Assembly (NCBI GenBank): GCA_964016885.1
Contig: OZ024741.1
Span: forward strand, 379,812,001 to 379,876,000
DNA: 64,000 nucleotides
DNA from: Eledone cirrhosa
Lineage: Eukaryota
Direction of reading: 5' to 3'
Shown here: positions 60,405 through 62,102 of the stretch, in pieces
Numbering within the stretch: position 1 is the first letter of the stretch
Layout: the number at the start of each line of letters is the position of its first letter
Translations under genes and position numbers: made by a program
Notes under the pieces: model-generated
The model's input: only the letters and a program-made list of their open reading frames with translations
The model's database searches: none
What the model was told of the DNA's origin: nothing

Positions 60405-61762
60405 ATATATATATATATATATATATATACATACACATATACACATACAGGTACACATACATATATGTACGTATCAGTTTAGCGGACGATTATTATAGCG
60501 CCCGCTTTGATCGTTTGTAAACAAACTGAACAGCCTGAATTTATGCCGCACGGTGTTAAGGCAACCACGTCACCTTTTTGTTCAACACTGACACAGGAAC
60601 GATGTACTAGTTTCAAGCTTGTTAGCTATCGTCAGCACCGTATACCCTTCTGCCAGATGGTTGACCGTTCGAAAGTATATACTTTCCTTATGAAAATTAA
60701 CGGCTGAGCAGCCTAATTTGCATATCGAGTGAGTTAAATCGGTCAGGCGCACCGGAAACGATGAGTTGTAATAAAATGAAAACGAAATTTCATTTCTCAC
60801 TCTTAGTACGGCACTTACTCAAATGTTAGTATGTATGTACACATGCATACACATATGTATACAGACGTACAGTAGCATGCACATATATATATATATATAT
60901 ATATACATACACATATACACATACAGGTACACATACATATATGTACGTATCAGTTTAGCGGACGGTTATTATAGCGCCCGCTTTGATCGTTTGTAAACAA
61001 ACTGAACAGCCTGAATTTATGCCGCACGGTATTAAGGCAACCACGTCATCTGTTTGTTCAACACTGACACAGGAACGATGTACTAGTTTCAAGCTTGTTA
61101 GCTATCATCAGCACCGTATACCCTTCTGCCAGATGGTTGAACGTTCGAAAGTATATACTTTCCTTATGAAAATTAACGGCTGAGCAGCCTAATTTGCATA
61201 TCGAGTGAGTTAAATCGGTCAGGCGCACCGAAAACGATGAGTTTTAATAAAATGAAAACGAAATTTCAATTTCTCACTCTTAGTACGGCACTTACTCAAA
61301 TGTAAGTATGTATGTACACGTACATACACATATGTATACATACGTACAGTAGCATGCACATATATATATATATATATATATACATACACATATACACATA
61401 CAGGTACACATACATATATGTACGTATCAGTTTAGCGGACGCTTATTATAGCGCCCGCTTTGTTCGTTTGTAAACAAACTGAACAGCCTGAATTTATGCC
61501 GCACGGTATTAAGGCAACCACGTCATCTGTTTGTTCAACACTGACACAGGAACGATGTACTAGTTTCAATCTTGTTAGCCATCATCAGCACCGTATACCC
61601 TTCTGCCAGATGGTTGAACGTTCAAAAGTATATACTTTCCTTATGAAAATTAACGGCTGAGCAGCCTAATTTGCATATCGAGTGAGTTAAATCGGTCAGG
61701 CGCACCGAAAACGATGAGTTGTAATAAAATGAAAACGAAATTTCATTTCTCACTCTTAGTAC

Positions 61763-61962
61763 GGCTGTTCAGTTTGTTTACAAACGAACAAAGCGGGCGC
61801 TATAATAAGCGGGCGCTATAATAAGCGTCCGCTAAACTGATACGTACATATATGTATGTGTACCTGTATGTGTATATGTGTATGTATATATATATATATA
61901 TATGTGTGCATGCTACTGTACGTCTGTATACATATGTGTATGTACGTGTACATACATACTTA
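61763..61962 (+). repeat. Inverted partial monomer terminating the array
   Basis: Reverse complement of TAAGTATG...CTGAACAGCC; GGC microhomology at the junction; internal duplication of GCGGGCGCTATAATAA; followed by (TA)n(GA)n. Confidence 0.92.
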
Positions 61963-62102
61963 TATATATATATATATATATATATATATATATATATATA
62001 TATATATATATATATAGAGAGAGAGAGAGAGAGAGAGAGAGAGAGAGAGAAAGAGAGAGAGAGAGAGAGAGAGAGAGAGAGAGAGAGAGAGGGGGAGAGA
62101 GA

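What the first reader, a model, noticed from the sequence alone, without database searches (positions are those of the whole stretch)
61714..62015. The ribozyme array ends with the same integration signature as neighbouring Penelope-like elements
Seen: the array begins after (TA)n at 48358. At its other end (the 5' side of the HHR-sense strand) it flips via a 3-nt GGC microhomology into a ~200-bp inverted piece that runs into (TA)n. The same layout, microsatellite / minus-sense body / inverted terminal segment / (TA)n, occurs in PLE A (34471-38302), PLE B (62103-63941) and the 32-34 kb element. Established: an inverted upstream pLTR is typical of PLE insertions. Inference: the array was seeded by PLE RT/GIY-YIG acting in trans on a multimeric or circular RNA, linking a satellite to its mobilising partner.
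Basis: partly seen in the sequence, partly recalled or inferred. Interest (0 to 1): 0.75.

Follow-up and report, generated by a model that had tools for sequence, protein, structure and literature searches.

The report
Ribozyme repeat with Penelope insertion footprint
This is the mirror-image end of a 13-kb array of a protein-free repeat with a predicted self-cutting RNA motif, and across the genome its copies land in TA repeats as two back-to-back arms ending at two fixed points, the mark of Penelope-type jumping genes, whose enzyme likely pastes them in, as was proposed before from weaker evidence.

Summary
Observation confirmed: a 28-unit array of a 472-bp monomer with a minimal type I hammerhead motif (48359-61765) flips at GGC into a 200-bp inverted arm ending in (TA)n. 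It is a family trait (10,108 exact hammerhead copies). Of 79 loci anchored on the family's 'tail' end, 55 have an inverted arm; 42 end at a second fixed site about 60 nt away, 0 at the tail site, 13 are unresolved. The neighbouring Penelope families follow the same one-tail rule, and two internal start sites are published Penelope biochemistry. Arms often pass the ribozyme cut and exceed one unit, so the template was likely circular or uncleaved. Adjacency does not identify the partner: PLE B is older, and neither neighbour shares sequence with the monomer. Two of 129 loci join a repeat arm to the end of the PLE A (Hydra-like) family, which has many open-frame copies; this is suggestive only. 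The array also aged and duplicated locally. This exact junction was not bridged by reads. It is a non-LTR retrozyme; Penelope mobilisation is proposed in print, and this scan already reported the same footprint on other DNA, in this genome and others.

The parts
48241..48358 (.). Left (TA)n target tract
48359..61765 (-). Long arm: 28 units of about 472 bp plus 48 nt; RNA sense on the minus strand; outer end at monomer position 1 (tail-bearing end)
48359..48418 (-). 'Tail': about 60 nt present at only one outer end of the insertion (monomer positions 1-60)
61076..61116 (-). Minimal type I hammerhead motif, one per unit (example unit 27): 5-bp stem I, 4-bp stem II closed by U-U, palindromic stem III; predicted cut between 61080 and 61081
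   Evidence: sequence; core intact in 22 of 28 units; Rfam only weak, HH9 17.6 bits, E 0.44
61763..61765 (.). GGC microhomology joining the 5' ends of the two arms
61763..61962 (+). Short inverted arm, monomer positions 243 to about 60; tail-less outer end; 0 substitutions in 182 aligned nt against the array majority sequence
61791..61827 (+). 16-bp tandem duplication inside the inverted arm
61961..62102 (.). Right flank: (TA)28 then (AG)n, shared with PLE B
49806..55519 (.). Six-unit block present twice (units 4-9 = units 10-15; 1 substitution and 2 microsatellite indels): recent local duplication or assembly artefact
60349..60406 (.). About 58-bp foreign insertion in the internal TA tract of unit 26
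34472..38302 (-). PLE A: Hydra-like Penelope element, open frame 35335-37602, inverted arm 37689-38302 carrying the roughly 80-nt tail; tail-less left end; arms 3.5% apart
62103..63941 (-). PLE B: decayed Penelope element, inverted arm 63553-63941 carrying a 66-nt tail; hammerhead motifs near 62168 (-) and 63809 (+); arms 10.9% apart
31956..34124 (-). Element with the same two-arm layout (ends 127 nt apart), inverted arm 33980-34124; no hammerhead found by pattern

Best explanation
The array is one insertion of an abundant protein-free repeat with a predicted hammerhead ribozyme (a non-LTR retrozyme), built of two back-to-back arms that end at two fixed points of the unit, and it was likely written into a TA tract by a Penelope-like element's enzyme acting in trans. 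Inferred steps: the GIY-YIG nuclease cuts both strands of (TA)n; each 3' end primes reverse transcription at one of two internal start sites about 60 nt apart, with 1-3 nt of TA match, usually on the same RNA source; copying runs through the ribozyme site and round more than one unit, which needs a circle or an uncleaved multimer; the two cDNAs stop at random points and are joined by end-joining (here at GGC). Afterwards the long arm aged in place (about 1.7% per unit) and was shuffled and partly duplicated as DNA. The Hydra-like PLE A family is the leading but unproven donor of the enzyme.
For: Shown: 10,108 exact copies of the hammerhead 40-mer and 978 exact TA-to-tail-end junctions. Set 1, 50 consecutive clusters chosen on the ribozyme alone: 28 of 50 have an inverted arm, always with 5' ends joined; of 22 with both ends resolved, 21 have one tail and one tail-less end, 1 has two tail-less ends, 0 have two tails (hand tally). 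Set 2, 79 loci anchored on the tail end: 55 inverted, 42 tail-less plus TA, 0 tail, 13 unresolved, 24 single (binomial p 5e-13); a TA run within 16 nt occurs at 795 of 4000 random flank positions. Inner junctions vary: of 26 scored, 13 have 2 or more nt of microhomology, 4 have 1 nt, 1 is blunt, 8 have inserts. PLE A family: 28 of 30 tail-less ends pair with a tail-bearing inverted arm; PLE B: 4 of 4 insertions with both ends in view. The two arms of a locus are closer to each other than to the median other locus in 37 of 42. 42 of 79 tail arms cross the predicted cut, 23 of 79 exceed one unit, and only 2 of 88 inner ends lie near the cut, 4.0 expected. Young arrays of 11 and 16 units are 0.2-0.5% alike internally. 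The hammerhead region varies less than its flanks in set 2 (1.2% against 2.7% and 4.3%). 52 other PLE A-family matches have no internal stop (of 59 scored); one forms a 3.53-kb tandem with a short inverted arm and one tail. L068 and L090 join a tail-bearing repeat arm to a tail-less PLE A end. Published: a purified PLE cuts and extends both strands and starts at two internal sites that bound the tail (PMC11167929).
Against: No sequence similarity between the monomer and PLE A, PLE B or the young PLE A-family copies, unlike the Xenopus cases in the 2026 preprint. No shared structured signal at the ends (fold z -0.3 to -1.5). The PLE A family shows no canonical hammerhead. Chimeras are rare (2 of 129 loci) and have other explanations: L068's PLE arm is identical to a PLE A mini-insertion 1.1 kb away, and L241 has two tail-less ends, as a deletion between neighbours would give. 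24 of 79 loci have no inverted arm. The window's array is heterogeneous (3.5% pairwise), unlike most multi-unit loci, so its full length cannot be credited to one round of copying. In the PAc assay ribozyme cleavage was not needed and unprocessed RNA was the main substrate, which favours a linear multimer as much as a circle. Cleavage, circularity and expression were not shown here; the motif does not fold as a hammerhead as a monomer (z 0.07).
Confidence: 0.85

Rival explanations
1. L1-style twin priming by an ordinary LINE enzyme: the second strand primes just upstream of where the first cDNA stops, giving a 5' inversion.
For: In this locus the long arm stops at position 48 and the inverted arm starts at about 60, only 12 nt apart. 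LINE-type RT elements are present in the window.
Against: Position 60 is a fixed family-wide end. Only 4 of 22 loci have the two points within 20 nt, 1.9 expected. The tail lies on the longer arm in 14 of 22, so the arms are equivalent. No poly(A) or common RNA 3' end is seen, and both ends are internal to the unit.
Confidence: 0.04
2. Penelope enzyme as in the best explanation, but the template is a linear, uncleaved multimeric transcript of an existing array, or linear monomers joined by template jumps, and only 1-3 units were seeded; the rest grew by unequal crossing-over.
For: Local duplication and mosaic variants in this array; its variant haplotype has its 10 best matches inside the array, others at 96% or less among 40 scored. 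PAc used unprocessed RNA in vitro. The hammerhead-less PLE A family also forms identical tandems.
Against: Very young 11-16-unit arrays are nearly uniform. About 18 units here differ star-like from one majority sequence, and the inverted arm equals that sequence, as expected if many identical units were written at once. Inner ends avoid the cut site. This rival differs only in the template and lies inside the 0.85 for PLE mobilisation.
Confidence: 0.4
3. DNA-level origin: a satellite or Helitron/MITE-like repeat spreads by recombination at TA tracts, and the inversions are fold-back repair products.
For: The unit contains an internal TA/CA microsatellite; TA tracts are common (20% of random flank points); some junctions sit on palindromes (L067, L161).
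Against: It does not explain two fixed outer ends used once each, the constant polarity, the same rule in RT-coding PLEs, or the lower variation of the ribozyme motif.
Confidence: 0.06
4. The inversion at this locus is an assembly artefact.
For: This junction was not bridged in the four runs laid; the identical six-unit block may be an artefact.
Against: The arm ends at the family's second fixed site and holds a private 16-bp duplication; opposite-strand joints with matching breakpoints occur in raw reads of two samples; dozens of loci show different breakpoints.
Confidence: 0.03

Closest known systems
Metazoan non-LTR retrozymes (Cervera and de la Pena 2020, PMC7229834: passages and Discussion read; Li, Clavereau and Pollet 2026, bioRxiv 10.64898/2026.07.22.740005: parts 1-3 of 5 read, to the end of the Discussion)
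   Same: Non-coding tandem unit with one type I hammerhead per unit, dispersed monomers to multimers, co-existing PLEs; U-U at the base of stem II as in axolotl HHR_Amex2. Both papers propose PLE mobilisation.
   Different: 472 bp, above the 170-400 nt of the first paper but inside the 51-972 bp of the second. No sequence link to a PLE pLTR was found here. In the parts read neither paper analyses insertion ends; the preprint's main text has no occurrence of 'tail' or 'junction'. Supplements were not seen.
EN+ Penelope-like elements, Hydra clade (Craig et al. 2021, PMC8557442: passages, sections 11 and 15 read)
   Same: Partial tandems, inverted 5'-truncated copy, tail at one end only, (TA)n targets. 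[quoted passage not shown]
   Different: The repeat encodes no protein; the tail is about 60 nt (PLE A about 80, PLE B 66) against 30-40 in the paper; the PLE A family lacks the canonical hammerhead said to be universal in Hydra. Clade placement rests on motifs, no tree was built; Pfam gave no hit.
Poseidon PAc of Anolis, in vitro (Frangieh et al. 2024, PMC11167929: parts 1-2 of 4 read)
   Same: Two internal start sites bounding the tail, both target strands cut and extended, AT-rich targets, predicted dimer.
   Different: The paper saw no difference in start site between strands and no RNA-DNA homology; here the two ends of one insertion use different sites almost always, with 1-3 nt of TA match. 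It did not test a non-coding RNA in trans.
Non-autonomous Chlamys PLEs such as MRC1 (PMC8557442, passage)
   Same: Non-coding PLE passengers that form multicopy head-to-tail insertions.
   Different: They resemble their autonomous partners at the 3' end; no such match was found here.

Membership tests
Non-LTR retrozyme | Tandem non-coding unit of a few hundred bp, dispersed at many loci | tested here: met
   472-bp unit; 10,108 exact motif copies; 1 to 28 units per locus
Non-LTR retrozyme | One type I hammerhead motif per unit | tested here: met
   Core and stems by inspection, intact in 22 of 28 units, lower variation than flanks; the core consensus is recalled; Rfam below threshold
Non-LTR retrozyme | No LTR, PBS, PPT or coding frame | tested here: inconclusive
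   No unit-internal frame of 120 aa or more apart from one crossing the unit-26 insertion and no LTR pair; PBS and PPT were not searched
Non-LTR retrozyme | Self-cleavage of the RNA | not testable with these tools
   Needs an in vitro assay; monomer folding does not favour the active form
Non-LTR retrozyme | Expression as linear and circular unit-length RNA | not testable with these tools
   No RNA holder listed
PLE-type insertion | Inverted 5'-truncated copy joined to the 5' end | tested here: met
   28 of 50 and 55 of 79 loci
PLE-type insertion | Tail at only one end (two fixed start sites) | tested here: met
   21 of 22 resolved in set 1; 42 of 42 resolved in set 2
PLE-type insertion | Microsatellite (TA)n target | tested here: met
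   42 of 42 resolved far ends against 20% of random points; 978 exact TA-tail junctions
Non-autonomous derivative of a given PLE | Sequence similarity to the pLTR or 3' end of the autonomous partner | tested here: not met
   No match to PLE A, PLE B or 11 PLE A-family loci; other PLE families of the genome were not tested
Hydra-clade PLE (PLE A) | RWK, DKT, CxCX5C linker, C-terminal GIY-YIG, (TA)n target | tested here: met
   against section 11 of PMC8557442
Hydra-clade PLE (PLE A) | Canonical hammerhead in the pLTR | tested here: not met
   None by pattern or Rfam; hence called Hydra-like only
L1-type twin-primed 5' inversion | Second priming site adjacent to the end of the first cDNA, variable between loci | tested here: not met
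   4 of 22 within 20 nt, 1.9 expected; second site fixed

The most novel reading that the evidence does not exclude
A dimeric, hammerhead-less Hydra-like Penelope enzyme assigns one of its two start sites to each cut strand, can roll round a 470-nt ribozyme circle some twenty times to write more than 10 kb in one event, and recognises this passenger without shared sequence; mixed insertions with one retrozyme arm and one PLE A arm record the two active sites loaded with different RNAs and so name the partner family.
Probability: 0.3. Interest if true: 0.75.

Novelty: new member of a known kind. Interest (0 to 1): 0.5.

Why it matters
How animal retrozymes spread has been open since hammerheads were found in newt satellite DNA; Penelope elements were proposed from co-occurrence and pLTR similarity. 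The two fixed ends used once per insertion are an event-level footprint that matches published Penelope biochemistry, and they give exact predicted start sites for an existing in vitro assay. The one-site-per-strand rule also bears on how Penelope elements build their inverted ends. The kind is known and this scan has reported the footprint repeatedly, so this locus adds an example, counts with controls, and a tentative partner.

Tried and rejected
Rfam at gathering scores: 0 matches in the window; at E up to 5 only microsatellite-driven matches and a weak HH9. Pfam did not recognise the PLE A protein. L1-type twin priming: rejected. Linear self-cleaved monomer as sole template: not supported; indels at the cut site, a lead from e1-8664908, were not counted. 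Shared end hairpins, a lead from e1-8809842: folds of four end regions were not better than shuffles beyond z -1.5. Adjacency as proof of partnership: rejected for PLE B (arms 10.9% apart, best other copy 92%). More chimeras: 16 partner sequences of single-arm loci were checked; those with matches were whole separate repeats or other insertions, a few had few or no matches, none was a clean new chimera; 0 of 19 other PLE B loci had a repeat arm. A source array elsewhere with the same variants: none among 40 scored. Sequencing runs: no RNA holder listed; the junction was not bridged. The first rule-based count (26 tail-less, 0 tail) mis-scored one terminus type and was redone; one duplicate locus (L206) was dropped from 80. 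One arm pair (L116) is a mis-pairing left in the 42; four junctions had no overlap and were not scored. Empty alleles could not be tested. Literature searches for a published analysis of retrozyme insertion ends found none; the library lacks most subscription papers, and supplements were not read.

Full report
Observation. The array begins at 48359 after a TA tract and holds 28 units of about 472 bp plus 48 nt. At 61763-61765 it shares GGC with an inverted arm that covers unit positions 243 to about 60 and ends at 61962 in (TA)28. Each unit carries on the minus strand a minimal type I hammerhead motif with a palindromic stem III and a U-U pair under stem II; the core (consensus recalled) is intact in 22 of 28 units. 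Rfam does not reach threshold. PLE A, PLE B and the 32-34 kb element also have inverted terminal arms.

The family. The genome is 3.0 Gb and holds 10,108 exact copies of the hammerhead 40-mer. I took the first 50 consecutive clusters on contig C1, chosen on the ribozyme alone. By hand tally, 28 of 50 have an inverted arm, always with the 5' ends joined and the 3' ends pointing out; four more have short inverted pieces. Outer ends fall at unit position 1-6 or 57-62. Of 22 clusters with both ends resolved, 21 have one of each, 1 has two at 57-59, and none has two at position 1. A second set of 80 loci was anchored on the TA-to-position-1 junction (978 exact matches; one duplicate dropped). Of 79, 55 have an inverted arm; 42 end near position 60 in TA, 0 end at position 1, 13 are unresolved, and 24 have a single arm. 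A TA run follows 795 of 4000 random flank points. Inner junctions vary, with short microhomologies or small inserts. Raw reads from two other samples of the same species label show opposite-strand joints at the same varied breakpoints, so the inversions are not only an assembly product; this locus's junction was not bridged.

The Penelope comparison. The 60 nt found at one end only is the 'tail' that Craig et al. describe, with an inverted 5'-truncated copy and (TA)n targets (PMC8557442). Frangieh et al. showed that a purified PLE cuts and extends both strands and starts at two internal sites that bound the tail (PMC11167929). The window's PLE families obey the same rule: 28 of 30 tail-less PLE A ends (8,728 exact matches) face a tail-bearing inverted arm, and so do 4 of 4 PLE B insertions seen whole. 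In PLE A and B the tail is on the short arm, in the array on the long arm; across loci it is on the longer arm in 14 of 22. The arms are therefore equivalent, and the 'inverted 5' piece' is just the shorter one. The 12-nt closeness of the long arm's stop to the second start here suggested L1-type twin priming, but only 4 of 22 loci show it, 1.9 expected.

The template. The arms of one locus are closer to each other than to the median other locus in 37 of 42, so both usually come from one source. Both start sites lie inside a self-cleaved monomer, yet 42 of 79 tail arms cross the predicted cut, 23 of 79 exceed one unit, and inner ends are not enriched at the cut (2 of 88, 4.0 expected). Young arrays of 11 and 16 units are 0.2-0.5% alike. 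This needs a circle, an uncleaved multimer, or repeated jumps; the data do not choose between them, and PAc used unprocessed RNA.

This array's history. Units differ by 3.5% pairwise, about 1.7% from the majority sequence, which the inverted arm matches at 182 of 182 positions (3 of 22 non-duplicate units also have no change there). Units 4-9 repeat as 10-15, shared variants are mosaic, 31 of 47 are not seen in two or more other loci, and one variant haplotype matches best inside the array. The array has aged and been shuffled in place, so part of its length is secondary.

The partner. The monomer has no sequence match to PLE A, PLE B or young PLE A-family copies. PLE B's arms are 10.9% apart, PLE A's 3.5%: PLE B predates the array, PLE A is of similar age. 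PLE A has Hydra-type motifs but no canonical hammerhead. Its family has 52 other matches without internal stop among 59 scored and forms 3.53-kb tandems with a short inverted arm and one tail. Two of 129 loci, L068 and L090, join a tail-bearing repeat arm to a tail-less PLE A end of ordinary length and then TA, which keeps the one-tail rule across families. Against over-reading: L068's arm is identical to a PLE A mini-insertion 1.1 kb away, so it may be copied from DNA; L090 has no such neighbour in the 5.2 kb fetched; L241 joins the repeat to a nearly intact PLE with two tail-less ends and may be a deletion product; set 2 gave no chimera.

Known context and verdict. Cervera and de la Pena named PLEs a strong candidate for mobilising animal retrozymes; Li et al. 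2026 argue it from co-occurrence and pLTR similarity without examining ends. My searches found no published end analysis. Earlier notes of this scan report the same footprint for other families in this genome and others; none matched this sequence. They are not independent support. Verdict: a real feature, a new member of a known kind, PLE-driven insertion likely (0.85), circle versus multimer open, partner tentative. Interest 0.5.

Noticed in passing
G000:C1:437198048-437214409 (L239, L240, L242, L243): About 4.6 identical 3,531-bp units of an open-frame PLE A-family element in tandem, with a 284-bp inverted tail-bearing arm: an autonomous, apparently hammerhead-less PLE with the same multi-unit layout as the repeat array.
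   Followed up: partly
L245:5171-8742: About 65 copies of a 55-bp piece of the PLE frame at the joint between the two arms of a tandem PLE insertion; repair stutter or assembly artefact.
   Followed up: no
L241:3011-8652: 1.8 repeat units joined to a 281-bp inverted PLE piece and 1.3 units of a PLE A-family element; both outer ends tail-less.
   Followed up: partly
window 23373-23580 and 31669-31896: Tiny two-arm insertions made only of PLE A or PLE B ends; most of 30 sampled PLE A ends are such 120-220-bp palindromes.
   Followed up: partly
window 31956-34124: Family with two fixed ends 127 nt apart in other loci too (L084, L090, L092, L097); no hammerhead by pattern; identity unexplained.
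   Followed up: partly
window 60349-60406: Short foreign piece, SINE-like by recall, inside the internal TA tract of unit 26.
   Followed up: no
window 62125-62185 and 61076-61116: PLE B's hammerhead and the repeat's both have U-U at the base of stem II, although the sequences do not align.
   Followed up: partly
L206, L207: Two copies of one insertion with the same junction, in opposite orientation 8 kb apart: a local inverted duplication.
   Followed up: no
window 6040-9183 and 27982-31438: Two LINE-type elements: an RT plus zinc-binding frame of 1047 aa, and a frameshifted endonuclease-RT.
   Followed up: no
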